Assembly (NCBI RefSeq): GCF_008065095.1
Contig: NZ_CP042911.1
Span: 1,620,001-1,652,000, forward strand
DNA from: Gemmata obscuriglobus
Lineage (GTDB): Bacteria; Planctomycetota; Planctomycetia; Gemmatales; Gemmataceae
Direction: 5' to 3'
DNA: 32,000 nt
A program made the translations under genes and the position numbers. Shown here piece after piece: positions 19,675 to 32,000 of this stretch. How positions within the stretch are numbered: the stretch's first letter is position 1; each line of letters begins with the position of its first letter. Under the pieces are notes generated by a model. That model searched no databases and was not told where the DNA came from. It worked only from the letters and a program-made list of their open reading frames with translations.

Positions 19675-19748
19675 GTGCCCGTAGCTCAACTGGATAGAGC
19701 GTCGGCCTCCGGAGCCGAAGGTTACAGGTTCAACTCCTGTCGGGCATA
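19675..19748 (+). tRNA. tRNA-Arg (anticodon CCG); no encoded CCA
   Basis: Cloverleaf read by hand. The acceptor stem is GTGCCCG/CGGGCAT (G1-U72 wobble) and the D arm is GCTC-AACTGGATA-GAGC. The anticodon arm is TCGGC-CTCCGGA-GCCGA and the T arm is ACAGG-TTCAACT-CCTGT. The discriminator is A. Confidence 0.9.
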
Positions 19749-19752
19749 CTAG

Positions 19753-19782: not shown

Positions 19783-20145
19783 TTTGCACCGCGGTCCGAG
19801 TGATGGTCGCCGTACCAAATTCCGTACTAAACCGTCCTTGTTTTGCGGGATTGACGGCGCTGGCGCCTTGGATCGGTGTGCCGCCCTCGGCCTACGGACG
19901 TAGACGCTCTCAAGCGATAGATTACCCTCGGTCACCGACCGAGAAGCAGGCGGGAATCCCCTCTCGGCAGGCTGTCTGGCTCTGCGGTCAAGCTCCGGGT
20001 ATAAGCGTCCGAGCGAGATCGGCAGCAGCGGTCGGCACCCGCAGCCCAACGGTGCCAGAAGGGGCGTACTCGGCTCCGAATCGGTCACGCGGGCAATGTG
20101 TCCAAGCGGCAGCACGAGACCGGCAAGAGCCATGAGGTTGCGAAG

Positions 20146-21159
20146 ATGTGGCCGGATACGCCCTTCGAAAAACAGCTCAAGACAGCCCTGAAAAAAATCA
20201 ACGCGCGCGGCGACGTGCTCGCGGGGAACTTCGCGTCGTCAAAAAAGTTCCTCGTTGAGAACGTCTACGAAGAGATCAAACGCGAAGAACGGCACTTGAG
20301 CGACCACGGGCCGCGGCACATCGTGAACGTCTTGGAGAACATCGGGACACTTCTCGGAAAAGAGTACGGTGGCTTCTCGCCCGAGGAGATGTACTGCCTC
20401 GGGATGATCACCCTCTTCCACGACGTCGGGAACATGTACGGCCGCAAGGAGCATCAGGACAAGATCAAGCAGATTTACACGAGGGCAAGGGCGGGAGCAA
20501 ACGAGGACAAGAGCGAGAGGGTGATGGTCCTGATGGCGGCGAAGGCCCACACTGGCGAGGCATCGGACGGGAGCAAGGACACGCTCAAAGATCTTGATAA
20601 TCGTTACTATTTTCAGGGGAGCATCGTTCGGCTTCAGGAAATCGCGGCTATCTTACGGATGGCGGACGAGCTTGCCGAAGGGCCGCAACGAACCTCCCGA
20701 TTGGTGCTGGAGACGCACGGCTACGATGAGAGTAGCCGCATCTACCACCGCTACGCGACGTGCGTCCACGTCAGCATCGACCGCGAGCGAGGTCTCTTCG
20801 CCTTGGACTACCACTTTGCGGTGGATCCGAACGCCGGAGACATTGAGTCGGCTCTTGCGGATATCAAAGAGCTTATAGAATTCTCATACAAACGACTCCT
20901 AAAGCTAGACCAGGAGCGAAGTTATACAAAGTTTTACTGCCCTGCTCTCAGCCCGTTCAAAGCCTCCTCGGCCACGTACCGTTTCTGGATCGGAGACGAC
21001 GAGTGTGGGACGAGACTCCCGGCGCTCTACGTTGACGACAAAGTTGTGCCGGGGGTGAATGCCCGTAGCGTGCCGCAGATCAACCCGCTGTACGAGCCGG
21101 CAACCATAATCGAACAACTGCGAGGCTCGATCCAGCAAAGGAATGGGGGTGTCGCATGA
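20146..21159 (+). CDS. HD-domain metal-dependent phosphohydrolase (candidate effector)
   Basis: The ORF is open from GTG 20098. ATG 20146 has a GAGG motif 9 nt upstream, so I prefer it. The HD signature is DHGPRHIVNVLENIGTLL...MYCLGMITLFHDVGNMYG...ILRMADELAEG. The ~150-aa C-terminal part is unrecognised. The stop overlaps the next start (ATGA). Confidence 0.75.
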   Translation: MWPDTPFEKQLKTALKKINARGDVLAGNFASSKKFLVENVYEEIKREERHLSDHGPRHIVNVLENIGTLLGKEYGGFSPEEMYCLGMITLFHDVGNMYGRKEHQDKIKQIYTRARAGANEDKSERVMVLMAAKAHTGEASDGSKDTLKDLDNRYYFQGSIVRLQEIAAILRMADELAEGPQRTSRLVLETHGYDESSRIYHRYATCVHVSIDRERGLFALDYHFAVDPNAGDIESALADIKELIEFSYKRLLKLDQERSYTKFYCPALSPFKASSATYRFWIGDDECGTRLPALYVDDKVVPGVNARSVPQINPLYEPATIIEQLRGSIQQRNGGVA

Positions 21160-22877
21160 GCACGTCAAACCCTTTCCAGTACGAGGCTGCGAACAACCTG
21201 TCGCCGAGCATGATCGCGGCGTTCTACGTCGAGGATTTCAACTTCTCTCGCGTGATTCAGTCCAAGCGGAACATCTTCCTGGTGGGAGAGCGCGGATCGG
21301 GCAAGACGATGACCTTGCTTTACAACTCGCTTCGCGTCCGCTTGGCGGCCGGAGGCAGGGACGCAAAGTCGCTGGAGATGATCGGGGTGTACATCCCCTG
21401 CAACACGCCCCTTGTTCACCGAAAGGAGTACCAACTACTCAATGAGATCCAGGCCGCCGCAATCTCCGAGCACTTCCTGGTGCTGACGGTAATTTACAAC
21501 ATCGCGGATACTTTGAACGAAGTCCCCGATACCCTCGACGGTGTCAAGCAGAAGGATCTGCGGTCGGATATCGAGTACATACTCGGTATCAAGCTCCGTG
21601 ACACTGTAAACCTGTACGAAGGGATCAGGGAATGGGCCCAGAAGGACATCGTTGCCACCCAGCGCCACATCAATCAGCCGAAGTCTGACTTGTTCTATGA
21701 CAATTGTCTGTCTTTTGCCTCCGGCGTGATGCCCTTGCTGGGCTGCATTCGCAAGATTCCGGTGCTTAAAGACTCGCACCTCATGCTCATGATGGACGAT
21801 GCTCACGACCTGAACGAGCATCAGGCGAGGTCACTGAACTCGTGGATCGCCTACCGCGACCATTCGGCTTTCAGCTTTAAGGTGGCAACCGCGAAGGTCG
21901 GCAAGCCGGACTTCAAGACGACGTCGGGAGGCGCGGTCCTCGAAGGGCACGACTTCACAACGATCGACATGGAGCAGCCGTTCCAGACCGCGTCCTCCGA
22001 CTTCGGGAAGATGTCGGCGAGCATCATCGATCGCCGGCTCAAACGTTGCGGGATTGAGAAAGGTGCGGCGGAGTTCTTTCCCGTAAGCCCACAGTTCGAT
22101 GCCGATATGCGGAAGTGCCACGATCAGGTGAAGGTGCGGGTGGCAAAGGAGCACCCGGACTGGTTGCCGTCGCGGGTGCAGGACTACGTCTACAAGTTCG
22201 GCCGTGCCGAGTACTTCCGAACCCGGTCGCCCAAAGCGAATCGTCCCACCTATTCGGGCTTCGACACGCTCGTGTACCTTTCCACGGGTGTGATCCGTAA
22301 CCTGCTGGAACCGTGCTACCTGATGTACGACGCCGTGCAATCGCGGCGGCACGACGGGGCGGCCGGAGCGGCGCCGACGGAGATTCCCCCGGACGATCAA
22401 TGCGACATCATCCTGCGACAAAGCGAAGCGATGTGGGCAAGGCTGAAGGAAGGTCTCGACAGATCCATTGACGGATGCTCTTCGAAGCAGGCGCGGCAGA
22501 TCGTAACGCTCTTCGAAAAGCTGGCGATGTATTTCCGCGTTCGGCTACTCAACCACGAGTCGGAACCGCAAGCCAACTCCTTCAGCATCACGGGAATGAC
22601 GGAGGCAATTGAGTCCGAACTCTCACCCCTGTTGATGATTGCCCGCAAGGCACAGCTACTTTACATGCGGTTCGGGCCAGCCAAGGCGGGCGGCTTGCGT
22701 GAGGCCTACTACGTTCCGAACCGGATGCTATGGCCGAGCATCGGCTTGGACCTGCACGGACAACACGCCCGCGCATCGCTCAAGGCCAAAGACCTGCTGG
22801 CAGCGAGCAACGGCACGGACATCCCGGTTAAAAAGCCGGACGCCGCGCCTGAACAGCGGGGGCTTTTCGATGAGTAA
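21156..22877 (+). CDS. P-loop NTPase (ORC/Cdc6- or STAND-like AAA ATPase), family unassigned
   Basis: 573 aa. Walker A is NIFLVGERGSGKTMTLLYNS and Walker B is HLMLMMDDAHDL. The ~330-aa C-terminal region is helical and unrecognised. The gene shows 4-nt start overlap with the HD gene and 8-nt stop overlap with the next gene. Confidence 0.75.
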   Translation: MSTSNPFQYEAANNLSPSMIAAFYVEDFNFSRVIQSKRNIFLVGERGSGKTMTLLYNSLRVRLAAGGRDAKSLEMIGVYIPCNTPLVHRKEYQLLNEIQAAAISEHFLVLTVIYNIADTLNEVPDTLDGVKQKDLRSDIEYILGIKLRDTVNLYEGIREWAQKDIVATQRHINQPKSDLFYDNCLSFASGVMPLLGCIRKIPVLKDSHLMLMMDDAHDLNEHQARSLNSWIAYRDHSAFSFKVATAKVGKPDFKTTSGGAVLEGHDFTTIDMEQPFQTASSDFGKMSASIIDRRLKRCGIEKGAAEFFPVSPQFDADMRKCHDQVKVRVAKEHPDWLPSRVQDYVYKFGRAEYFRTRSPKANRPTYSGFDTLVYLSTGVIRNLLEPCYLMYDAVQSRRHDGAAGAAPTEIPPDDQCDIILRQSEAMWARLKEGLDRSIDGCSSKQARQIVTLFEKLAMYFRVRLLNHESEPQANSFSITGMTEAIESELSPLLMIARKAQLLYMRFGPAKAGGLREAYYVPNRMLWPSIGLDLHGQHARASLKAKDLLAASNGTDIPVKKPDAAPEQRGLFDE

Positions 22878-23751
22878 CACCGAACTTTTCGTCACGATGG
22901 CGAGCTGGGAGGAGCGTTTCCTACTAGGCGCGCGGGAGGTCTTCAGCCAAGACGCACCCCGCAAGGCGATCATGTACTACGCGCGGGAGAACGCGGCGAA
23001 TTCGCAAGAGAATCGAGATGGATTTGAGGAGCTTTGCGAGGGGCTGCATGTACAGGTGAAGACCCGAGAGGTCTCGTTCGGATCGCCAGCCGACACCTGG
23101 CGATCACTGCAGGCCGACCTTGCGAGCCAAACGGTCGCCGCGAGCCGGGCGACCGTAGATATCACTACGATGCCGCGGGACATCATCTGGCTGACCTTCT
23201 CATTTCTGAAGGAGGTTGGGTGCGAAGTCAATTACGTATACCACAAGCCCAACTCTTACAACAAGGACTGGCTCAGCCGAGATCCTGATCGACCGCGGCT
23301 GGTTTACAAACTGTCCGGTGAAGCCCGCCTCGGCTGCCCAACGACGTTGATCGTCCTTACGGGGTATGATGTCCGCCGCACAGAGCAACTTATCCGCTTC
23401 TACGAGCCGAAGACAGCATTTCTGGGCATTCAGACGGGCAGCCAATATGGCAACCAGTCGAAAAACACGGACGTGCATGCACCTTTGATTTGCCCGGACG
23501 GGAGCGTGGAGCGGTTCGATGTCGATGCCTACTCGGCAGACAGGGGACTTGCTGCTATCCGAGCCAAGCTCGAGGGCTGCATTGACGACAGCAACGTAGT
23601 TCTCAGCTCGCTGGGGCCAAAGCTGTCTGCCGTCGCGCTATTCCAGCTACACCAAGCCTTCCCCCAGGTGGCGTTAGCTTACGCACCCTCTCAGGAGTAC
23701 AACATTGACTACTCCTCTGGGATCGGTGAGACTGTACGTGGCCAGCTCTGA
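22870..23751 (+). CDS. Hypothetical protein with a Rossmann-like alpha/beta pattern (CARF/Csa3-N-like or SLOG-like?)
   Basis: ATG 22870 lies inside ORF 22639..23751, and ATGAGTAA overlaps the upstream stop. The protein is 293 aa with no TM segment or signal peptide. It shows alternating strand and helix segments ([15 protein letters not shown]..., [59 protein letters not shown]). Confidence 0.6.
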
Positions 23752-23759
23752 GCCAAATC

Positions 23760-24980
23760 ATGGAAGATCAGACTATCGAGGGCGTGCGGTCGCATTTCAC
23801 AGCGGCTGACCTGTTTGCCGGAGCCGGCGGACTTAGCCTTGGCTTCGAACAAGGCGGAGCCACAATCGTGTTTGCGGTGGAGCGAGATGCAAATGCAGCT
23901 CGCACATACCGCGCAAATCGCACCGACGTGAAACTGTTTGATAGGGATATTCGAGAGCTAGACCCGGCCACTTGCATGACGTCGGCGGGCATTAAGTCCG
24001 GCGAGCTTTGTGTGTTGATTGGTGGTCCACCGTGCCAAGGATTCTCAGAATCAAACAAGCGAACGCGAACGCTGGAAAACCCTAACAATCACTATTATTT
24101 GGAGTATTTTCGTTTCCTTGCAGCGTTGCAGCCGCAGTGGTTCGTCATCGAAAACGTTGCCGGCTTGAAAACTTTGGCGGGTGGCGCGTTGCTCGATCGG
24201 ATCGCAGAGCAGGCGGATCAGTTGGGGTATACGGCGAGTTGCCTCCAGCTTGAGGCATCCGCGTTCGGGGTACCACAAGTGCGGCGAAGGTTGTTTATCG
24301 TCGGGAACCGCCTTCAGTTGCCCATCATAACCCCGCAGCCAATCTTCGGCGAGGGCTTGGCCAAACCTGTGACTGTTCAAGAGGCGATCGGCGACCTGCC
24401 TCGATTGAGCGCTGGGGCTGCGATCGACATTCTGCCCTACCCTAGCCGCTCCAAACTATCCGACTACCAGTTGCGGATGCGGCGAGGTTCCGTGTCTGTT
24501 CAAGGCAACCTGGTCACAAAAAATTCACCACTGGTGCTGAAGCGGTACGAAGTCATTCGGCCTGGCCAGAACTGGGAGTCGATCCCGAACCGCCTTCTGA
24601 AGAACTACAGCGATGCTTCTCGGTGTCATACCGGTATTTACTACCGGCTGGTAGCCAACCAGCCTTCGAAGGTGATCGGCAACTTCCGCAAGAACATGCT
24701 TATCCACCCCTCTCAGCACCGGGGGCTCTCGGTGCGCGAGGCAGCGCGCATTCAGTCTTTCCCCGACGCCTACCAGTTCACGGGAAGCATCGGGTTCCAG
24801 CAACAACAGGTCGCTGACGCGGTACCGCCCCTTCTGGCAAAAGTCGTCGCCCAAATGATTCTAAGTTCGATGCTTCAGTTGCCTCCTGGCAACAAGCAGG
24901 CAAGGCACCGCTCACTAGGCCGTGGAAGTAGAACAAAAGGCTCGCGGAAGTCGGCCCGCAGGGCGGTTGGGGTTCGTTGA
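23760..24980 (+). CDS. DNA (cytosine-5)-methyltransferase
   Basis: The motifs are all present. Motif I is [12 protein letters not shown] is GGPPCQGFS and VI is FVIENVAGL. Motif VIII is [12 protein letters not shown] is [16 protein letters not shown] and X is ADAVPPLLA. The gene starts 8 nt after the upstream stop. It has an unusual ~40-aa Arg/Lys-rich C-terminal tail. Confidence 0.92.
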
Positions 24981-24989
24981 CAGCGGACC

Positions 24990-25018
24990 TGGCAAAGGGT
25001 ACTGTTCGCCCGTATAAA
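24990..25018 (+). promoter_or_regulatory. Weak sigma-70-like promoter candidate upstream of thyX
   Basis: TGGCAA, a 17-nt spacer, then TATAAA, ending 29 nt before the thyX ATG. The -35 element matches only 3 of 6 positions. Confidence 0.25.
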
Positions 25019-25047
25019 AGCCACTGGCTAGAACCCGGGAGACAGCA

Positions 25048-25983
25048 ATGGAACAGATCGAACGCCCCGTCGTTCCGGCCCTCGACGCGATCCTCGGCCA
25101 GCAGTTCAAGGTGCTGGACAACGGGTTCGTCCGCGTCGTCGATTACATGGGGTCGGATGACTCGATTGTGCAGGCGGCCCGCGTTTCCTACGGAAAGGGA
25201 ACGAAGAAGGTTTCTGAGGATCGCGGCCTGATCCGGTACCTCCTGCGAAACTGGCACACCACGCCGTTCGAGATGTGCGAGCTGAAGCTTCACGTCCGTG
25301 TTCCGATGGACTGCTGGCGGCAATGGATTCGACACCGCACGGCCAACGTCAACGAGTACTCCACGCGATACTCCGAAGCGATCGATGCCGCACAGGTCAC
25401 TGCCCCCGATGGATGGCGTAGCCAATCCTCCGCAAACCGTCAGGGTAGCGCGGGAGTACTCGACACTGCAATCGGCGAAGAACTAACGGCAGAAGAGGAG
25501 CGGCTCCTGAAGCACAGCCGCTCAGTGTACGAGAAGCGGCTGTCGGCTGGGGTAGCCAGAGAGCAGGCCCGCAAAGACCTCCCTCTGTCCACCTACACCG
25601 AGGCCTATTGGAAGGTGGACCTCCACAACCTCTTCAACTTCCTTCGCCTGCGGATGGACGCGCACGCCCAGCTTGAAATTCGATCCTACGCCACGGTGAT
25701 CGGGAACGAGATCGTAAGCCGCTGGTGCCCGGTGGCGTGGGAAGCGTTCGTCGATTACCGACTCAACTCTGTGGCCCTGTCACGGCTGGAAATCGAGGTG
25801 ATTCAGGCGCTTGCCGGCAATAATGTGGCCGGAGCGGTCCGCCTCGGGATCGAAGCCGGCTTGCTGGACGAGAACGGATCGCCATTGAAGCAGAGTCGTG
25901 AACGCGGAGAGCTGGAAGCGAAACTAGCCCGGCTCGGCATCGCCTGCCCGTGGGCTCAACCTGCAGTGCAGTCAGCACAGTAA
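25048..25983 (+). CDS. thyX: FAD-dependent thymidylate synthase ThyX
   Basis: The ThyX motif is RHRTANVNEYSTRY (RHR-x7-S). N-terminal family pattern: FKVLDNGFVRVVDYMGSDDSIVQAARVSYGKG...LIRYLLRNWHTTPFEM. At 311 aa the protein has a C-terminal extension compared with minimal ThyX proteins. Confidence 0.9.
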   Translation: MEQIERPVVPALDAILGQQFKVLDNGFVRVVDYMGSDDSIVQAARVSYGKGTKKVSEDRGLIRYLLRNWHTTPFEMCELKLHVRVPMDCWRQWIRHRTANVNEYSTRYSEAIDAAQVTAPDGWRSQSSANRQGSAGVLDTAIGEELTAEEERLLKHSRSVYEKRLSAGVAREQARKDLPLSTYTEAYWKVDLHNLFNFLRLRMDAHAQLEIRSYATVIGNEIVSRWCPVAWEAFVDYRLNSVALSRLEIEVIQALAGNNVAGAVRLGIEAGLLDENGSPLKQSRERGELEAKLARLGIACPWAQPAVQSAQ

Positions 25984-27080
25984 CGCACTGGCTCATCATC
26001 TCTCGTGAATTACTGGAGGCGGCCGGCTGTGCAGCCTTGCTTGGCCTGCGGCCATTCCCTGCCCTGCCTTTCCTTCCCGTCGCCGTCGGTCGCGTTCGAC
26101 ATGCCCTCCCTGCCTTGCGCGCCGTCGGCCGTCGGGATGTAGTATCGCTGGGTTCCATCCATCCCCGCGATGCGGAGCCCGAGAGGCCAGAGGCGCGTGC
26201 GTGGGATGGTTTTCTCGCGCTACGCTTGAGGTCAGAGGGGGCAGCGGAGTGGGGTTCTTCTGCTCTCCGCGAGGTTGCTGACTCGCCCGCCTCGGCTTTG
26301 AACGGCACGCCCACGGCGCGGGGCGCGTTAAGCTGGTCTCACGAATCGCGGTAAGCTGGCGACCGCCAACCCAACTTGGCGAACCGATTACGGCCGCCGG
26401 TCCTGCTACAAAGCAGAGGCCGGGGGCCGTTTCCCGTTTGAAGACGGAGGTTGCCATGCCAGAGGGCCTCGCGCGGACGCTGGGCACGACGATGGTGTTG
26501 CTCGTCACCGAGTTGGAGGCGTAACTCGATCGGGATCAACCCGACACCACGTGAGTGATTTCGGGTGGTCTACTCCCGGGCTCTTACCGGGAACGGGGTC
26601 GAATCGCCTCCCTCCATTCGATCGCACCCGTGGAATCGTACGTAAATGCCCTTTTCACGCCGATTCGCCCCTCCCGGCTGGGGCAGCTGCTCCTCGACCC
26701 GTACCGCGTCTCGCAACCCGGTTTCCGGGCCAGTACGATGGTGTCCGCTCGCCCTCCTTCCCTCAATGCCCTTTTTCACGCACGACGTTGTCCGCCTGCG
26801 TCGGCCTCGGAGGTTCTGCGAACCTCATTCGATTCGATTAGAGGTCCACGGTCGAGACAGCGAACGAGCCAACGCCCATGAATTTCGTTCCCGTGACGTG
26901 CCCCGCCACGGTGCGTGCGCCTGATCGGCCGTGCCTCCGCGCTCACCGACACGGGATTCCCGTTTCTTTTCCGTCATCCGGGCCTTTCGATCGTGCTGCT
27001 TTCCGTGCCACCGGTGACAGGGCACTGATTCACAACGGTTTTGGGGCCCAGGGCCCCGAGCAGGTTTCTGGCCGCGCGCG

Positions 27081-27089
27081 TTATCCACA
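27081..27089 (+). promoter_or_regulatory. Consensus DnaA box TTATCCACA
   Basis: An exact 9-mer match to the consensus, located 11 nt upstream of the AT-rich stretch. Confidence 0.6.
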
Positions 27090-27100
27090 GGCCCGGCACG

Positions 27101-27150
27101 TTACAACAAGTTACAGTATAAATCGTTAGATTTATAGTTAAGTAAGTTAG
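27101..27150. other. AT-rich DNA-unwinding-element candidate
   Basis: The sequence is ttacaacaagttacagtataaatcgttagatttatagttaagtaagttag. It contains repeated AGTTA submotifs and is by far the most AT-rich 50 bp of the window. Confidence 0.6.
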
Positions 27151-27194
27151 CCGACCCACAACGCCTTGAACGGTCGCAAGAAATCGGGCCTCCG

Positions 27195-27282
27195 TGCGCC
27201 TGATCGGCCGTGGGTGCTGCGTCTGATCGGCCGTGCCCACTTGCGCCTGTTCGGCCGTGCCTCTTGCGCCCGATCGGCCGTG
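27195..27282 (+). repeat. Four tandem 18-bp iterons at 23-24-bp periodicity
   Basis: The four copies are tgcgcctgatcggccgtg (27195), tgcgtctgatcggccgtg (27218), tgcgcctgttcggccgtg (27242) and tgcgcccgatcggccgtg (27265). A fifth, identical copy lies at 26916-26933. Confidence 0.85.
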
Positions 27283-27386
27283 CCCGGGGATGGTTCTATG
27301 GATAACTCGGCAACGGCCGCCCGGTCCGGACGTGCGGGAGCACTCGCGGACCGGGACGTGGGCGGGTACGAGCGGGAAGCGTACGC

Positions 27387-28319
27387 CTATTCGGCCGTGA
27401 CTGCCTGCGCGAGTGTGAGGGCCGGCTCGGCGATTGTTGCCTTGGCGTGCCGGTGGCGCGCCCGCGGGGGTTGGAATCGTGGGTCCGCGGGCGGCAGGTG
27501 GCAGCGCGGGAGGAACGTCACTACCTCATCTTCGGCGGTGCGGTGTACCGCCAGTGCGTACTCGGGCAGGCTATCGGCCTCGACCACCTTGCGCACGTCC
27601 AGGGCGAAGTCCGAGAACCGGGCCGCCGAGCCGGACTTGGCGTACAGCTGGCGCATGGTGAACGTCCACCCGGCCGGCTGCGTGCCGGCGTGCTTGCGGG
27701 CCACCCGGTACAGCCACCGCTCGATCCCCCCGGTGAGCAGGAAGTAATCCTCGTGGATGGTCAGCACTCCGCCCTTGGCCACGATCCCGGTGTACAGCCA
27801 GTCGGGTAGGGTCATGGTCATGTGCGCGGTCTCCCCGGTGGCCTCGTTGACCTCCTCGGTCCACGATTCGAGCCAGTGGAACGAGGCCGATTTCTTCTTC
27901 CCCTGCACCCGGATGTTTGTACTCACCGCGGTGTGTGTCAGCCGGTTCAGGGCCTCGCGGAGCCGCCGATAATGGTCCCCGCCGACCGACCGGCGGACGC
28001 TCTTGAGCAGGTTGTACGGATGGAAGTGGATGACCCGGGACGGTGCGTGTCCTCGGTCCAGGGCCTCGGTCACCTGGGTAGACGCCCAGATCAGGATGTC
28101 CGCATCCCAGATCGACGCCATCCCGAACTTGGGGTTGGCCGTGACCTCGACCCACACGTCCCCGACCTGGTACTCGATGGGCGCCAGCCGGGGCTTCTTG
28201 GACAGGCTGAAGAACGGCCGCTCCATGGTGTCACGCTGGTCGCGGATCGGGATGTCGGCGAACGTGCCGGCGAACAGGTCGGGCTGGTGGTCCCCCTTGG
28301 GGTGGTGGCGCTTGGACAT
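27387..28319 (-). CDS. repA: Plasmid replication initiator protein A (RPA/RepA family)
   Basis: The ORF is open to TTG 28361; I prefer ATG 28319 (MSKRHHPKGDHQPDLFAG...). Family-like N-terminus: IPIRDQRDTMERPFFSLSKKPRLAPIEYQVGDVWVEVTANPKFGMASIWDADILIWASTQ. It is adjacent to the iterons. Confidence 0.8.
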   Translation of the reverse strand: MSKRHHPKGDHQPDLFAGTFADIPIRDQRDTMERPFFSLSKKPRLAPIEYQVGDVWVEVTANPKFGMASIWDADILIWASTQVTEALDRGHAPSRVIHFHPYNLLKSVRRSVGGDHYRRLREALNRLTHTAVSTNIRVQGKKKSASFHWLESWTEEVNEATGETAHMTMTLPDWLYTGIVAKGGVLTIHEDYFLLTGGIERWLYRVARKHAGTQPAGWTFTMRQLYAKSGSAARFSDFALDVRKVVEADSLPEYALAVHRTAEDEVVTFLPRCHLPPADPRFQPPRARHRHAKATIAEPALTLAQAVTAE

Positions 28320-28401
28320 GGGCCGGATGATAGCGCGACCCGCGGCGGACGCAAGCGACAATTACTCCCCGTCTGTCCCGCAGGCGAGCTCCACTTTTCA
28401 C

Positions 28402-28430
28402 GAACGCAGGAATTCCGGAACGCCCGAATT
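28402..28430. promoter_or_regulatory. Two tandem copies of a 13-bp GAACGCCnGAATT-like motif upstream of repA
   Basis: The copies are gaacgcaggaatt (28402-28414) and gaacgcccgaatt (28418-28430), in the gap between the parG-like stop and the repA start. The same motif recurs upstream of parA. Confidence 0.55.
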
Positions 28431-28766
28431 CTACTTATCCAGTTTGCGTGCCTTTTCCCAAGCGTCGAGGGCTTCAAACAGTAATTCGTTGAGCCGTAGG
28501 TCGGCGGTGGCGGCGCGTTGACGGAAGCGGCGACGGAAAGAAGGGGGCACCTTAAACGAGAGCGACGTCAGGTCCGCAGTCGCCACTCGCTCAGCCATCC
28601 GCTTGCTCTCGGTTGACGGCTTCGGCTTGGCCACGGGGGGCTTGAGAGCAGGCTCAATGGGCACTGGAACCGCCGGGGCACGCTGCACGGCTTCGGGCAT
28701 TGGGGCTGCCACATCGGCCGTGAGGGAGGTGAGCTGATCGTAGTTAATCATCGGGCGCTTGTTCAT
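28431..28766 (-). CDS. ParG-like ribbon-helix-helix partition/centromere-binding protein
   Basis: 111 aa. The N-terminal half is disordered and Pro-rich. The C-terminal RHH-like segment is LSFKVPPSFRRRFRQRAATADLRLNELLFEALDAW. Its start overlaps the parA stop (ATGA). Confidence 0.6.
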   Translation of the reverse strand: MNKRPMINYDQLTSLTADVAAPMPEAVQRAPAVPVPIEPALKPPVAKPKPSTESKRMAERVATADLTSLSFKVPPSFRRRFRQRAATADLRLNELLFEALDAWEKARKLDK

Positions 28767-29437
28767 GCCGCCTGCCCTCCCGTGCGGACTTTTTCGCTTT
28801 CGTGCGTGCGCTCTTTCACGGCGCGCCAGATGCCGGCCAGTTCGGTGACCGCTTTCCCTTCGGGCTCGATCTCGAACGCAGTTTTGCCGTGGGCGAAGCT
28901 CTCGGCGTAGACGACTCGTTCATGCATCCGGGCGGGAATCACCAGGCCCAGGGTCTCCAGCGCTATTGCCACCCCTTCATTGTTGCGCAAGTTGGGTCGA
29001 ACCCGGGCGAGGACGAATTGGAACGGGCGGCCCGAGCGCTTAATCATCGGTAGTCCTTTGACCAGTGCCCGCATATCGGCTGGGGTGGGATTGAGTGGGA
29101 TCAGGATCAAATCGGCGACGGCAAACAGCTCTGCATTGACGGTGCCGACGGAGGGGGCGGTGTCGACGAACAGGTAGGATGCGCCAGCGGCGGTCAACTG
29201 GTCGACGGTGGTGCGCAGAGCGGCCAAGTTCAGCGGAGCGTAGCGCGGGGTCTCGAGACCGCCTTTGCGGCGCTCGTTGAACCAGTCGGCGGTGCTCGCC
29301 TGGGGGTCCGTGTCAGACAGCACGACGGGGCCGTCGCCGCAGGTCTCGGCGGCGACGGCCAAGTGGGTGGTGAGGGTAGACTTCCCCGATCCACCTTTTT
29401 GGTTGGCAATCACGATCGTCTTCATAAGGCCGACCAT
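28763..29437 (-). CDS. parA: ParA-family partition ATPase (small, type Ib-like)
   Basis: The deviant Walker A is IANQKGGSGKSTLT, followed by DTDPQAS and Walker B LFVDTAP. Start candidates are ATG 29437 and ATG 29425 (MKTIVIANQKGG). Confidence 0.88.
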   Translation of the reverse strand: MVGLMKTIVIANQKGGSGKSTLTTHLAVAAETCGDGPVVLSDTDPQASTADWFNERRKGGLETPRYAPLNLAALRTTVDQLTAAGASYLFVDTAPSVGTVNAELFAVADLILIPLNPTPADMRALVKGLPMIKRSGRPFQFVLARVRPNLRNNEGVAIALETLGLVIPARMHERVVYAESFAHGKTAFEIEPEGKAVTELAGIWRAVKERTHESEKVRTGGQAA

Positions 29438-29491: not shown

Positions 29492-29615
29492 CATTCGGGC
29501 GTTCCAGAAGTGCTCCGTTCCAGAAAGGCAGAACACACGAACGCCGGAATTTGCTAATTCTACCGTTCGGGAACGCCGGAACGGTGGCAAGCGTGATTTC
29601 CAGAACGCCAGAATT
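29492..29615. repeat. Four copies of the 13-bp GAACGCCnGAA(T/C) motif upstream of parA (operator/centromere candidate)
   Basis: One copy is inverted: cattcgggcgttc (29492-29504). The other three are direct: gaacgccggaatt (29539-29551), gaacgccggaacg (29571-29583) and gaacgccagaatt (29603-29615). Confidence 0.6.
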
Positions 29616-29748: not shown

Positions 29749-32000
29749 TCATTTCGGCGCACCGAGGATGATGAGGAGATCCCGGCTCGTGTAATCGAGA
29801 ACGCCATCGAGGTGCAACTGTACGGGATCGACGAGGACGTCGGTCACGCATGGCTTCGAGGTCAGATTGGCGACACGGATGATGACGTAGGTTCCGGACT
29901 TCGGGTCACCGTGGCACCCCTGGGCCACCTCCCACTCGTTCGTCGTCATCTCGAACACGCTGCCGCCGTCATGCGCGGACGACTTCACCTCGATGAGGCA
30001 GCGTGGCATGATACGAGAACCTGCGAGAGCGCCGGTGACGTCGTCATAGGAGAAGTCATAGCCTAAGGTATCGTTCCCAGCGCTGAACCCGAAGCGCTCC
30101 CTGCCTTTCGACAGCCAATTCGTCAGGTCAAAGTCCGGACACAGCGCCTTCAACTGCTGGTAGACGAAGTATTCGCCGACGGCCCCGAGGACTGCGAGGT
30201 AGTCCTCTGACACGCGCGTCCGGGCGCCTCCTCCACTGCCCGCGCCGGGTCGGCCCCGCTTCGTGGGACGTTGCACTGCGCCGCGGGACACCGAGCGGAT
30301 GGCTGCGAGATTGAGAGCGGGGTTGACTGCCGCTTCCAGGTTCTGTGCGACCGTCCCGGCCGGCCCCTTGGCGGCGGAGGTTTCGAAGTCCTCGCGCGTC
30401 CAGCCGGCGCTGAGGACGTTGAAGGTGGGTTTCGGCGGTGCCGGGGCGGGCGGTGCCGGGATGTCTCCCAGCTCCTCAAATTTCTTCCAGAGTGATCGCC
30501 AGTCCTCGACTTCCCGGAATGCAGACCGCTCCTTCATTCGTGCGGCCGTGCGCGGGGCCGCGGCCTCGAGGGCGTCCCGAACGGCGGCGATGACGGCCAC
30601 GCGGTTCCCCCAGAAGCCCTGGCTCAGCAGCGTCACCAGTGCGTGCCCCGTGATTGCCGCGGGGTCGATCGTTTCTTCGAACTTCGGCGCGAGCTCGCCC
30701 GCCACCTTGAGGACGATGTTCACCGCGTCTCCCGCCTGCTGCGCTCGAACGATCTCGTCGTCCCGCTCGTAGATGCCCGCTGACTTGTCCGGTTCATCCT
30801 TCAGCTTGAGAGCGGAGAGTTCCGACGGTGGCGACTCGGAGAGCTTGCGCAGCGGATCGACGAGCTGCGCGGCACCCGCGACGGTGGGGCGGGGCGCGGC
30901 GAGCGCGAGGGCATCACGGGCGACGCGGCCGACAATCGCTTCGGGGTTGAGGGTCTCCTCGGCGACCTCCGTAGGCACCGCGAGCCGACGAACGTCTCCC
31001 ACCCAGCCCGCCACGTCGTCCGCGAGTGCTGCGGGCACTGTCGGGCCGGAAGATCGCGGGACGACGAGGTAGGCGAACCAGGCCATCAAGTGACCCGCGA
31101 CGGCATCGCGGGCGGATGTGTAGTGGCGCTCGGAGGGGGCGAAGCGCCACCGCGGCTCGCCGAGCTTCGTGCGAGCGCTCTGCCAGACCGCGACCGAGAG
31201 CCCCAGACCCTTCAGGAGCGACAGCGATCCTTGCGGTTCGTCCACGCGTGATGCCGTTTCCAGGCGCACGTGCAAGTCGGGCCAAGCGAGCCACGCGCTG
31301 GCGGTCTCGGGCGAGCGGGCATGCTGGGACCACTCCCGCCGGAAGTCGTCGAGCGTTCCGTCCGGGTGATCGCGGTCCCAGAGCGCGAGGCAGATCGGTT
31401 GGAAGTGCCGCAGACGGCGCTCGAAGCCCAGGCCGATGGCGACTTTCACCTCCATGCGCTCGGTCGCAGTGGTCCCATAGTCCTGGAAGAATTGGTCACA
31501 GGCACCCGCGCGGAGTTCCTGTGCGTAGGCGGTCCAGAGAGGGCGATACGACGTTCCGAGCAACTGCCAAGTCTCGCTGACGACCTCGTGCGGTGCCAGC
31601 GTGGAATCCACGAGGAGGGCGGGGCCGCCGGCACGCTGCGCATCGAAGCAGGCGCGTTCGGACATCGTGCCCTCGAACCTGCCGCGGATGAGGCTCGTCC
31701 GCGAGAACAGACGCCAGGCGGCGCGGAACGCCTCGTCGGTCGGTAAGGTCGCCTGGGTCGCGCCCTTGAGAATCAGCAGCGCGAGATCCTCCGCCACCAG
31801 CCGCTCCGGAACGGTATCTCGCAGGTAGTCGACGAGGGGAACGCCATGCGCGAGCGGGTTGAAGGGCACGTCGATCGGAAGCTCGCTGACACGGGCCACC
31901 CGCGTTGACCCCAAGAGCGTGCGCAGGGCGTTCACGAGTTCGCGATACGTGTGCTGGAAGCGCCTCGGGAGAACCCACGCCTCCCGGAAACCCGCGACGT
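29749..32000 (-). CDS. DUF3883-domain (PD-(D/E)xK restriction-endonuclease-like) protein; 5' end outside the window
   Basis: The C-terminus matches the DUF3883 pattern: VGEYFVYQQLK...LGYDFSYDD...CLIEVKSSAHDGGSVFEMTTNEWEVAQ...GTYVIIRV. The reading frame stays open upstream of the ORF-track start (GTG 31935) to position 32000 (...VAGFREAWVLPRRFQHTYRELVNALR), so the gene is probably longer. Confidence 0.7.
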   Translation of the reverse strand, partial: VAGFREAWVLPRRFQHTYRELVNALRTLLGSTRVARVSELPIDVPFNPLAHGVPLVDYLRDTVPERLVAEDLALLILKGATQATLPTDEAFRAAWRLFSRTSLIRGRFEGTMSERACFDAQRAGGPALLVDSTLAPHEVVSETWQLLGTSYRPLWTAYAQELRAGACDQFFQDYGTTATERMEVKVAIGLGFERRLRHFQPICLALWDRDHPDGTLDDFRREWSQHARSPETASAWLAWPDLHVRLETASRVDEPQGSLSLLKGLGLSVAVWQSARTKLGEPRWRFAPSERHYTSARDAVAGHLMAWFAYLVVPRSSGPTVPAALADDVAGWVGDVRRLAVPTEVAEETLNPEAIVGRVARDALALAAPRPTVAGAAQLVDPLRKLSESPPSELSALKLKDEPDKSAGIYERDDEIVRAQQAGDAVNIVLKVAGELAPKFEETIDPAAITGHALVTLLSQGFWGNRVAVIAAVRDALEAAAPRTAARMKERSAFREVEDWRSLWKKFEELGDIPAPPAPAPPKPTFNVLSAGWTREDFETSAAKGPAGTVAQNLEAAVNPALNLAAIRSVSRGAVQRPTKRGRPGAGSGGGARTRVSEDYLAVLGAVGEYFVYQQLKALCPDFDLTNWLSKGRERFGFSAGNDTLGYDFSYDDVTGALAGSRIMPRCLIEVKSSAHDGGSVFEMTTNEWEVAQGCHGDPKSGTYVIIRVANLTSKPCVTDVLVDPVQLHLDGVLDYTSRDLLIILGAPK

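What the first reader, a model, noticed from the sequence alone, without database searches (positions are those of the whole stretch)
26916..29437. Complete plasmid-type maintenance module (oriV + repA + parG-like + parA) in the same window as EPS and tRNA genes
The origin carries five copies of an 18-bp iteron (TGCGCCTGATCGGCCGTG and one-mismatch variants). Four are in tandem at helical-repeat-compatible 23-24-bp spacing. It also has an exact DnaA box (TTATCCACA) and a ~50-bp AT-rich block. These lie just beyond the 3' end of an RPA-family initiator gene, which is co-directional with a ParA / RHH-ParG pair.

This looks like a functional iteron-plasmid replicon. So either this contig is itself a plasmid or chromid that carries an EPS locus and tRNA genes, or a plasmid has integrated here. 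Either answer affects how the adjacent defence-like operon should be interpreted, because it would be plasmid-borne cargo.
Basis: partly seen in the sequence, partly recalled or inferred. Interest (0 to 1): 0.65.

Follow-up and report, generated by a model that had tools for sequence, protein, structure and literature searches.

The report
Integrated plasmid replicon in Gemmata chromosome
The repeats and genes are a real, intact plasmid-type replication-and-partition module, but it sits inside the 9-Mb chromosome of Gemmata obscuriglobus as part of an integrated mobilizable plasmid, a situation already noted in outline for this species.

Summary
Five 18-bp iterons (plus a sixth degenerate copy over the repA stop codon), two DnaA boxes and a 61-bp AT-rich block lie 3' of an RPA-family repA. 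A ParF-like parA and a small RHH gene sit upstream, with their own GAACGCCNGAAT repeats.

The order repA stop/iteron, DnaA box, four iterons, AT block, inverted DnaA box, distal iteron recurs almost base for base in four other planctomycete loci. It recurs in weaker form in dozens of metagenome contigs, so it is a conserved origin.

The window is not a plasmid or chromid. It matches CP025958.1, the 8,998,893-bp Gemmata obscuriglobus chromosome, without mismatch. The module lies in a low-GC island of at least 25 kb that starts after tRNA-Arg(CCG). The island also carries defence genes, thyX, a Tiamat-like giant, ParDE, a MobF/TrwC relaxase and an IS66 fragment.

No integrase or att repeat was found in those 25 kb, and the right end is unresolved. 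Whether the replicon still fires is untested.

A 2024 preprint already lists two chromosomal RPA genes in G. obscuriglobus as integrated plasmids. This is therefore a new member of a known kind. Its practical value is as a candidate native replicon for Planctomycetota vectors.

The parts
26916..26933 (+). Distal (outlier) iteron, exact copy. It lies about 280 bp beyond the tandem array.
   Evidence: An equivalent distal iteron sits at the same relative place in L010, L011 and L012.
27081..27089 (+). DnaA box TTATCCACA on the far side of the AT-rich block. On the repA-sense strand it reads TGTGGATAA.
   Evidence: It is invariant in all 5 aligned loci. In the metagenome loci listed it usually lies about 110-135 nt after the start of the last tandem iteron.
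27096..27156 (.). AT-rich block, the candidate DNA-unwinding element.
   Evidence: at least 70% A+T in a region of about 64% GC. The sequence itself is conserved across loci (TAAC..TTTAACTAT..ATCTAA.GAT..ATA..TAACG).
27195..27282 (+). Four tandem 18-bp iterons, with starts at 27195, 27218, 27242 and 27265.
   Evidence: The same four-iteron array, with 22-24 bp spacing and nearly the same sequence, is in L010, L011, L012 and L016.
27297..27305 (-). Second DnaA box (TTATCCATA, 1 mismatch), between the repA end and the iteron array.
   Evidence: An exact TTATCCACA sits at the same position in L010, L011 and L012.
27382..27399 (+). Degenerate iteron (3 mismatches) that contains the repA stop codon.
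   Evidence: It is at the same position in L010 and L011.
27387..28319 (-). repA, an RPA-family (PF10134) replication initiator of 310 aa.
   Evidence: -: E = 2e-80.
- 5778 proteins with E <= 1e-10. The best 120 are 69-100% identical, and all that carry a source's organism name are Planctomycetota.
- 41-52% identical RepA genes are on 1196 PLSDB plasmids.
- an AF2 model (pLDDT 71) matches RctB domains 2-3 (3e-10) and RepE (4e-5).
28402..28429 (+). Two GAACGCCNGAAT repeats in the RHH-repA gap, over the presumed repA promoter.
28431..28766 (-). 111-aa ribbon-helix-helix protein. It has a conserved basic N-terminal tail and a Pro/Ala-rich linker, and is ParG-like in architecture.
   Evidence: -: PF23807 RHH_10 at E = 2.3e-4, 21.8 bits, below the cutoff of 27.
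- 35 of 36 homologues hit RHH_10.
- the conserved pattern is strand, helix, helix.
- the AF2 monomer model has two C-terminal helices but low confidence.
28763..29437 (-). parA, a small (224 aa) Walker-type partition ATPase with the deviant Walker A motif KGGSGKST and no N-terminal DNA-binding domain.
   Evidence: -.
- full-length matches to TP228 ParF (4dzz, 5e-11) and to a 214-residue chain deposited as 'ParA' (5u1g, 3.5e-11).
- Motif read directly from the translation.
29493..29614 (.). Four GAACGCCNGAAT repeats (one of them inverted) upstream of parA. These are the candidate centromere and operator.
   Evidence: Related loci carry different short repeats at the same place.
19675..19749 (+). 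tRNA-Arg(CCG). This is the left edge of the low-GC island that holds the module.
   Evidence: GC falls from 68-72% to 57-60% here.
20098..25983 (+). Island cargo: HD-CE, an ORC/CDC6-like AAA+ protein, a 293-aa CARF-model protein, a C5 DNA methylase and ThyX.
   Evidence: GC3 is 0.64-0.78, against 0.87-0.97 in three of the four flanking host genes measured (0.77 in the fourth).
29749..32000 (-). C-terminal part of a 1863-aa giant protein that matches Tiamat TmtA models and has a NOV_C/DUF3883 end. The gene runs off the window.
   Evidence: TmtA 1.2e-85.

Best explanation
**What it is.** This is the intact replication and partition backbone of a plasmid of at least 25 kb that carries a relaxase (so is potentially mobilizable). 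It now lies in the Gemmata obscuriglobus chromosome beside tRNA-Arg(CCG).

**How it would work (inferred from the family and anatomy, not shown here).**
1. RepA, a tandem winged-helix initiator of the RPA family, binds the four tandem 18-bp iterons.
2. Host DnaA binds the two inverted DnaA boxes that bracket the iterons and the AT-rich block.
3. Together they open the 61-bp AT-rich element so the host helicase can load, giving theta replication.
4. The outlier iterons, at the repA stop codon and about 280 bp distal, would serve copy control by pairing (handcuffing).
5. The RHH protein binds the GAACGCCNGAAT repeats upstream of parA, forming a centromere that the ParF-like ATPase segregates.
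6. The two further repeats over the repA promoter would let the RHH protein also repress repA.

**State in the chromosome.** The module is carried passively. It is most likely kept quiet, or fires only if the element leaves the chromosome.
For: **Anatomy and statistics.**

**Protein families.**
- RepA hits PF10134 at 270 bits. Its model has a tandem-WH fold like RctB and RepE.
- Homologues sit on 1196 real plasmids.
- ParA matches ParF over its full length.

**Conservation.**
- The whole origin architecture recurs in L010, L011, L012 and L016.
- In 48 of 58 metagenome loci an iteron-like site lies within 700 nt after repA, and 27 have tandem runs.
- A parA homologue lies upstream in 41 of 45 loci with enough sequence.

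**Chromosomal location.** The window has zero mismatches to CP025958.1 (8,998,893 bp), and neighbouring proteins are named Gemmata obscuriglobus.

**Island.**
- GC and GC3 drop across it.
- It carries a MobF/TrwC relaxase, ParDE and an IS66 fragment.

**Literature.** RPA initiators with putative iteron origins are the main replicon type of planctomycete plasmids. Two chromosomal RPA genes in G. obscuriglobus are read as integrated plasmids (bioRxiv 10.1101/2024.01.22.576637).
Against: - No integrase and no att-type repeat of the tRNA end were found between 19.7 and 44.8 kb. The mode of integration and the right boundary are therefore unknown.
- No free circular contig carrying this RepA clade was found among 80 metagenome loci.
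- No PLSDB plasmid has a RepA more than 60% identical. Every complete-genome example of the clade is chromosomal.
- RepA-iteron binding, DnaA dependence and RHH-repeat binding are all inferred.
- The RHH protein misses Pfam's cutoff, and ParA misses the NCBIfam equivalog cutoff.
Confidence: 0.8

Rival explanations
1. **Integrative and replicative element.** The island is a living element that excises, replicates through RepA and oriV as a plasmid, is mobilized through its TrwC relaxase and re-integrates. This would resemble the actinomycete integrative elements pSAM2 and SLP1, but with a theta replicon.
For: - Every part of the module, and the relaxase, is intact.
- The same intact cassette sits in at least four other large planctomycete contigs or chromosomes with different neighbours.
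- Assembly contigs from three sequencing runs break at 19721 inside tRNA-Arg, which implies that a 30-mer there is repeated or branched.
Against: - No integrase or excisionase lies in the 25 kb seen, and none within 10 kb either side in L010, L011, L012 or L016.
- The two contig ends (19721 and 44822) share no core sequence.
- The right-hand break is in an IS66 fragment, so it is explained by a repeated IS.
- A tRNA paralogue would explain the left-hand break.
Confidence: 0.2
2. **Inactive remnant.** The module is a recently integrated but dead passenger that has not yet decayed. It has no current role, and its intactness only reflects a young insertion.
For: - It lies in the chromosome beside an IS66 fragment.
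- The Frigoriglobus chromosomal copy has lost the adjacent parA-RHH pair and sits among IS66 genes, which shows such copies do get rearranged.
- An active iteron origin inside a chromosome is generally expected to be selected against (general knowledge).
Against: - There are no frameshifts or stop codons.
- The iterons differ from the cross-locus consensus by 0-1 bases, and both DnaA boxes and the AT block are kept.
- RepA has host-like GC3 (0.90) while its neighbours do not. This could mean long residence in GC-rich hosts rather than recent arrival.
Confidence: 0.35
3. **Plasmid or chromid.** The contig is itself a plasmid or chromid that carries EPS and tRNA genes.
For: Only the presence of a complete plasmid-type module in the same window as housekeeping-like genes.
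Against: - The window is part of a 8,998,893-bp record, and of a 9,032,617-bp contig in another assembly.
- That is about the whole genome size of this species (own knowledge).
- Composition changes sharply at tRNA-Arg.
Confidence: 0.02

Closest known systems
RPA-family (PF10134) plasmid replicons. This covers the planctomycete plasmids of bioRxiv 10.1101/2024.01.22.576637, pBTK45-type plasmids, and many alphaproteobacterial plasmids (Sphingomonadaceae, Methylobacterium, Azospirillum).
   Same: - The initiator family is the same (270 bits).
- Iterons and an AT-rich stretch lie next to rep, and a type I partition pair is adjacent.
- The preprint already reads chromosomal RPA genes in G. obscuriglobus as integrated plasmids.
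   Different: - This RepA is at most 52% identical to any PLSDB plasmid RepA.
- It belongs to a tight clade of 69-81% identity spread over several planctomycete families. In complete genomes that clade is seen only in chromosomes.
- The detailed origin layout, with two inverted DnaA boxes bracketing four iterons and the AT block, is not described in the main text of that preprint.
Classical iteron theta replicons: F RepE/ori2, R6K pi/gamma ori, pPS10 RepA, RK2 TrfA/oriV and Vibrio chromosome-2 RctB.
   Same: - Tandem directly repeated sites about two helical turns apart, DnaA box(es) and an AT-rich unwinding element.
- An initiator with tandem winged-helix fold (Foldseek: RctB 3e-10, RepE 4e-5).
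   Different: - There is no detectable sequence similarity to solved initiators.
- The origin lies 3' of rep, and one iteron overlaps the stop codon.
- No iteron-like operator lies in the rep promoter. Instead that promoter carries the partition protein's repeats.
Type Ib partition system ParF/ParG/parH of plasmid TP228.
   Same: - A small ParA without an N-terminal domain, matching ParF end to end.
- A small downstream protein with a flexible basic tail and a C-terminal RHH.
- Short repeats upstream of parA.
   Different: - The RHH protein does not hit Pfam ParG (PF09274), and hits only RHH_10 below its cutoff.
- Repeats also sit in front of repA.
- Binding and ATPase stimulation are untested.
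The pPALBO2-like plasmid integrated in the chromosome of strain SH-PL62 (Ivanova et al. 2017, PMC5352709).
   Same: It is a planctomycete chromosome holding a cluster of plasmid genes that is read as an integrated plasmid. The SH-PL62 chromosome also carries the same parA-RHH-repA-oriV cassette.
   Different: The host family and the cargo differ. I did not check whether the 23-kb locus of that paper is the locus L016.

Membership tests
Pfam PF10134 RPA replication initiators | Full-length match above the gathering score. | tested here: met
   270 bits against a cutoff of 27, covering profile positions 1-228 of 228.
Iteron-type theta replicon | At least 3 directly repeated 17-22-bp sites in tandem, about 22 bp apart, next to the rep gene. 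| tested here: met
   four tandem 18-mers at 23, 24 and 23 bp, plus two outliers. 6 found against 0.08 expected.
Iteron-type theta replicon | An AT-rich unwinding element and DnaA box(es) adjacent to the iterons. | tested here: met
   The positions are conserved in 4 other loci and in many metagenome loci.
Iteron-type theta replicon | An initiator with tandem winged-helix (WH1-WH2) fold. | tested here: met
   The AF2 model has pLDDT 71 and pTM 0.58. The top Foldseek hits are RctB domains 2-3 (3e-10), RepE (4e-5) and a Rep WH1 domain. TM-scores are only 0.25-0.44, so this is moderate support.
Iteron-type theta replicon | The initiator binds the iterons and the fragment replicates autonomously. 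| not testable with these tools
   Needs EMSA or ChIP and a cloning test.
Type Ib (ParF/ParG-like) partition system | A small ParA with the deviant Walker A motif KGGxxK[ST] and no N-terminal DNA-binding domain. | tested here: met
   Length is 224 aa with the motif KGGSGKST. It matches ParF 4dzz over residues 5-197.
Type Ib (ParF/ParG-like) partition system | NCBIfam NF041546 ParA_partition equivalog score. | tested here: not met
   144.9 bits against a cutoff of 180. This is the best hit and covers the full length, but it is below the cutoff.
Type Ib (ParF/ParG-like) partition system | A downstream small centromere-binding protein with an RHH fold (ParG, PF09274). | tested here: inconclusive
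   - There is no PF09274 hit.
- RHH_10 scores 21.8 bits against a cutoff of 27.
- 35 of 36 homologues hit RHH_10.
- The AF2 monomer model is low confidence at pLDDT 62.
- A profile search of the PDB found nothing.
Type Ib (ParF/ParG-like) partition system | Repeated binding sites upstream of parA. | tested here: met
   six GAACGCCNGAAT sites, all at the parA and repA promoter regions. Binding was not tested.
tRNA-targeted integrase-borne genomic island or integrated plasmid | Lies next to a tRNA gene and has atypical composition. | tested here: met
tRNA-targeted integrase-borne genomic island or integrated plasmid | A tyrosine or serine recombinase gene in the element. | tested here: not met
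   None is found from window-equivalent position 18.8 to 44.8 kb. Sequence further right was not obtainable.
tRNA-targeted integrase-borne genomic island or integrated plasmid | A direct repeat of the tRNA 3' end at the far boundary. | tested here: not met
   No repeat longer than 15 nt was found between the tRNA region and any sequence up to 44,822. It remains untested beyond that point.
Chromid or secondary chromosome | A plasmid-type replicon is the maintenance system of a separate large replicon. | tested here: not met
   The host record is 8,998,893 bp, the main chromosome.

The most novel reading that the evidence does not exclude
The repA-oriV cassette is a still-competent replicon shared across the phylum and used by elements that live mostly integrated in planctomycete chromosomes. 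If so, the 1.5-2.8-kb fragment from this window would replicate autonomously in Gemmata or other Planctomycetota. That would give the first replicative vector for the phylum. It would also raise the question of how an intact iteron origin is kept silent inside a chromosome.
Probability: 0.3. Interest if true: 0.6.

Novelty: new member of a known kind. Interest (0 to 1): 0.35.

Why it matters
**Annotation.** This settles how the neighbourhood should be read. The defence-like operon, thyX, the Tiamat-like giant and ParDE are cargo of an integrated mobilizable plasmid in the chromosome. They are neither plasmid-borne genes nor core genes.

**Practical use.** Planctomycetota model strains still lack a replicative plasmid, and the elements needed for replication are stated to be unknown (PMC11958385). 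This locus and its relatives define a compact, strongly conserved candidate minimal replicon that could be tested directly. It consists of repA, four iterons, two DnaA boxes and the AT block, with an optional parA-RHH pair and its repeats.

Tried and rejected
- **Exact lookup of the 728-aa ORF at the window end.** It is not on record, because the real gene is 1863 aa and runs off the window.
- **Genome-contig scan with the giant protein.** The aim was to fetch the source genome and reach the right boundary.
- **Protein search with the partial YhcG nuclease.** The aim was to walk further right. The exact Gemmata protein was not returned. Walking succeeded later through cluster lookups, but all public short-read contigs stop at the IS66 fragment at window-equivalent 44,822.
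- **att search.** Exact 10-mers and short-word BLAST of the tRNA region against everything up to 44.8 kb gave only chance-level hits.
- **Contig ends as att sites or a circular junction.** The ends at 19721 and 44822 share no sequence.
- **Circularity of 80 metagenome contigs.** None has a terminal overlap.
- **Small ORFs called downstream of oriV in relatives.** They are not conserved and are probably spurious.
- **Rfam on the whole window.** Only the two tRNAs were found.
- **PDB by sequence.** Nothing was found for RepA or for the RHH profile.
- **Promoter and terminator scan of the module.** Nothing exceeded chance.
- **Foldseek on the RHH model.** Not run, because the model confidence is too low to be meaningful.


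Full report
**1. Observation**

The repeats are real.
- The 18-mer TGCGCCTGATCGGCCGTG occurs exactly at 26916 and 27195, and with one mismatch at 27218, 27242 and 27265. A sixth, weaker copy (3 mismatches) is at 27382.
- That is six matches against 0.08 expected, and none of 100 shuffles reaches six.
- The four central copies are spaced 23, 24 and 23 bp apart.
- The exact DnaA box TTATCCACA is at 27081-27089. A second box with one mismatch lies inverted at 27297-27305.
- In this window alone the DnaA-box count is not above chance (3 vs 1.27). The weight comes from positional conservation, described below.
- A 61-bp stretch (27096-27156) has at least 70% A+T in a region of about 64% GC.

**2. 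Genes**

*repA.*
- The ORF at 27387-28361 (-) matches Pfam RPA (PF10134) over the whole profile, E = 2e-80.
- Homologues start at the ATG at 28319, so repA is 27387-28319, 310 aa.
- The sixth iteron contains the repA stop codon.

*parA.*
- parA (28763-29437, -) encodes a 224-aa Walker ATPase with the deviant motif KGGSGKST.
- It aligns end to end with TP228 ParF and with a 214-residue chain deposited as 'ParA' (4dzz, 5u1g).
- It falls short of the NCBIfam ParA_partition cutoff, 144.9 against 180 bits.

*The RHH gene.*
- The 111-aa gene between them (28431-28766) overlaps parA by 4 nt.
- It hits RHH_10 below cutoff, and 35 of 36 homologues also hit RHH_10.
- The family alignment shows a conserved basic N-terminal tail, a Pro/Ala-rich linker and a C-terminal strand-helix-helix. 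This is the ParG layout, although Pfam ParG itself is not hit.

*A second repeat family.*
- GAACGCCNGAAT has six copies in the 32-kb window. Four lie upstream of parA (29493-29614) and two lie in the RHH-repA gap (28402-28429), against 0.75 expected.
- I read these as the centromere/operator of the RHH protein. This is inference.

**3. RepA fold**

- No solved structure matches RepA by sequence.
- An AlphaFold model built on 35 homologues (pLDDT 71, pTM 0.58) gives as best Foldseek hits RctB domains 2-3 (3e-10), RepE bound to its operator (4e-5) and a Rep WH1 domain.
- This supports the tandem winged-helix fold of iteron initiators. TM-scores are low (0.25-0.44), so support is moderate.

**4. 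The origin is conserved**

Close RepA relatives were looked up in their contigs.

*Gene order.* Two MAG contigs (L011, L012) and the SH-PL62 chromosome (L016) keep the order parA, small RHH-type gene, repA, then 600-700 bp of non-coding DNA. The Frigoriglobus tundricola chromosome (L010) keeps repA and the non-coding stretch but lacks the adjacent parA-RHH pair.

*Origin layout.* Read in the repA direction, L010, L011 and L012 show the same series as the window:
1. an iteron at the stop codon (in three of the five loci);
2. a DnaA box;
3. four iterons, 22-24 bp apart, with almost the same sequence (CACGGCCGATCAGGCGCA);
4. an AT-rich block whose sequence is itself conserved;
5. an inverted DnaA box;
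6. a distal iteron about 280-330 bp further on.

L016 keeps the iteron array, the AT block and the inverted box, but has no first box in the same orientation and no detected distal iteron.

*Metagenome loci.* Among the 80 loci fetched with a RepA profile, 58 have at least 450 nt after repA.
- Of these 58, 48 have at least one site within 3 mismatches of the Gemmata iteron, and 27 have tandem runs.
- In the loci listed, an inverted DnaA box usually lies about 110-135 nt after the start of the last tandem iteron.
- A parA homologue lies just upstream in 41 of 45 loci with room for it.

*Partition repeats.* The short repeats upstream of parA differ in sequence from locus to locus but sit at the same place. 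In L016 they also appear in the RHH-repA gap.

**5. Where the window comes from**

- The ParA protein is encoded on NCBI record CP025958.1 (GCA_003149495.1), 8,998,893 bp. The fetched stretch L008 matches the window over 13,238 shared bases with no mismatch.
- Neighbouring proteins carry the source name Gemmata obscuriglobus and also occur on a 9,032,617-bp contig of another assembly.
- The window is therefore chromosome, roughly positions 6.368-6.400 Mb, read in reverse complement.
- The plasmid/chromid reading is refuted.

**6. The island**

*Composition.*
- GC is 66-73% (mostly 68-72%) up to 18.5 kb, 57-61% from 19 to 25.5 kb, and 61-66% over the module.
- GC3 is 0.87-0.97 in three of the four flanking host genes measured (0.77 in the sugar transferase). 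It is 0.64-0.78 from HD-CE to ThyX and in parA and the RHH gene, 0.90 in repA, and 0.83 in the giant gene.

*Gene content, walking right through public contigs*:
1. tRNA-Arg
2. HD-CE
3. ORC/CDC6-like AAA+
4. 293-aa protein that hits a PADLOC CARF model
5. C5 methylase
6. ThyX
7. oriV
8. repA
9. RHH gene
10. parA
11. 1863-aa protein that hits Tiamat TmtA models (1.2e-85)
12. 230-aa protein
13. ParE and ParD
14. two small proteins
15. YhcG-type nuclease
16. MobF/TrwC relaxase (882-898 aa)
17. two hypothetical proteins
18. a fragment with an IS66 zinc-finger match

Together this is a typical mobilizable-plasmid backbone plus defence cargo, at least 25.1 kb long.

*Relatives.* RepA relatives in Frigoriglobus and in L011 also sit near TrwC relaxases, and the Frigoriglobus one near IS66 genes.

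**7. What could not be settled**

- No integrase and no repeat of the tRNA 3' end occur anywhere from 19.7 to 44.8 kb.
- Public short-read contigs from three runs break at 19721 inside tRNA-Arg, and contigs from five runs break at 44,822.
- The two ends share no sequence. The right end lies in the IS66 fragment, so ordinary repeats explain the breaks at least as well as an att site.
- The right boundary, the mode of integration and any excision remain open.
- No metagenome contig carrying the cassette shows terminal overlap.
- No PLSDB plasmid has a RepA above 60% identity. The best are alphaproteobacterial plasmids at 41-52%.
- At DNA level the parA-RHH pair is closest to an Acidiphilium plasmid, 71.6%. 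RHH homologues with names are alphaproteobacterial. The RHH proteins of the other planctomycete cassettes are only 17-29% identical. The partition pair therefore looks exchanged as a module.

**8. Literature**

- A 2024 preprint on the planctomycete plasmidome reports that 13 of 21 known plasmids encode RPA initiators with putative iteron origins and type I partition systems.
- It also reports five chromosomal RPA genes, two of them in G. obscuriglobus, forming a separate recent clade that it reads as integrated plasmids (10.1101/2024.01.22.576637).
- An integrated plasmid in the SH-PL62 chromosome was proposed in 2017 (PMC5352709).
- A 2025 tools paper states that model planctomycetes lack a replicative plasmid and that the elements needed for replication are not defined (PMC11958385).

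**9. Verdict**

- The finding is a correct description of an intact iteron-type replicon with a ParF/ParG-like partition cassette.
- It lies in the chromosome as part of an integrated mobilizable plasmid. This was already noted in outline for this species, so it is a new member of a known kind.
- What this analysis adds is the precise origin anatomy, its strong conservation across planctomycete families, the candidate partition and operator repeats, and the extent and cargo of the island.
- Whether the replicon is active is the open point, and a cloning test can answer it.

Noticed in passing
window 29749-32000 (-), continuing to window-equivalent 35340 (L008:4098-9689): A 1863-aa protein directly upstream of parA hits PADLOC Tiamat TmtA models (1.2e-85) and ends in a NOV_C/DUF3883 domain. 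Relatives 53-55% identical occur in Gammaproteobacteria, Lautropia and Burkholderiaceae contigs and in a Planctomycetales MAG.
   Followed up: partly
window 20098-24980 (+): A four-gene operon of HD-CE, an ORC/CDC6-like AAA+ protein, a 293-aa protein with no Pfam hit that matches a PADLOC 'CARF6' model at 7e-35, and a C5 cytosine methylase. HD-CE and the ORC/CDC6-like protein hit no PADLOC model. It looks like an NTPase-based conflict system with low GC3.
   Followed up: partly
window 25048-25983 (+): A thyX gene (TIGR02170, 179 bits) lies inside the island and has island-like GC3 of 0.74. I did not check whether the chromosome has another thymidylate synthase.
   Followed up: no
window 25984-26915: About 930 bp between thyX and the distal iteron has no convincing ORF, no Rfam hit and no conserved small gene.
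   Followed up: partly
window 19721 (inside tRNA-Arg, 19675-19749): Contigs from three independent sequencing runs of this organism end exactly at 19721. This implies that the 30 nt from there to just past the tRNA end occur elsewhere in the genome. The cause could be a tRNA paralogue or a distant att copy.
   Followed up: partly
window-equivalent 39160 (L009 end; inside the YhcG/DUF1016 nuclease gene): In run SRR5887565 the sequence departs from CP025958.1 at this point, and a second contig (L021) resumes nearby. This suggests an insertion in that culture or clone.
   Followed up: no
window 28431-29437 compared with L011, L012 and L016: The parA-RHH pair of this locus is closer to alphaproteobacterial plasmid genes (Acidiphilium plasmid, 71.6% nt) than to the pairs in the other planctomycete cassettes (RHH only 17-29% identical). 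Meanwhile repA and oriV stay 70-81% conserved. This points to modular exchange of the partition genes.
   Followed up: partly
window 28320-28340 (just upstream of the repA ATG): A -10-like GCTATCAT lies about 10 nt before the repA start codon. A similar GCTATCGT sits at the same place in L011. repA may have a very short leader or none.
   Followed up: no
window-equivalent 40323-43019 and 44211-44822 (L017): A full-length MobF/TrwC relaxase and an IS66-type fragment belong to the same island. A chromosomal traI in G. obscuriglobus is mentioned in the literature.
   Followed up: partly
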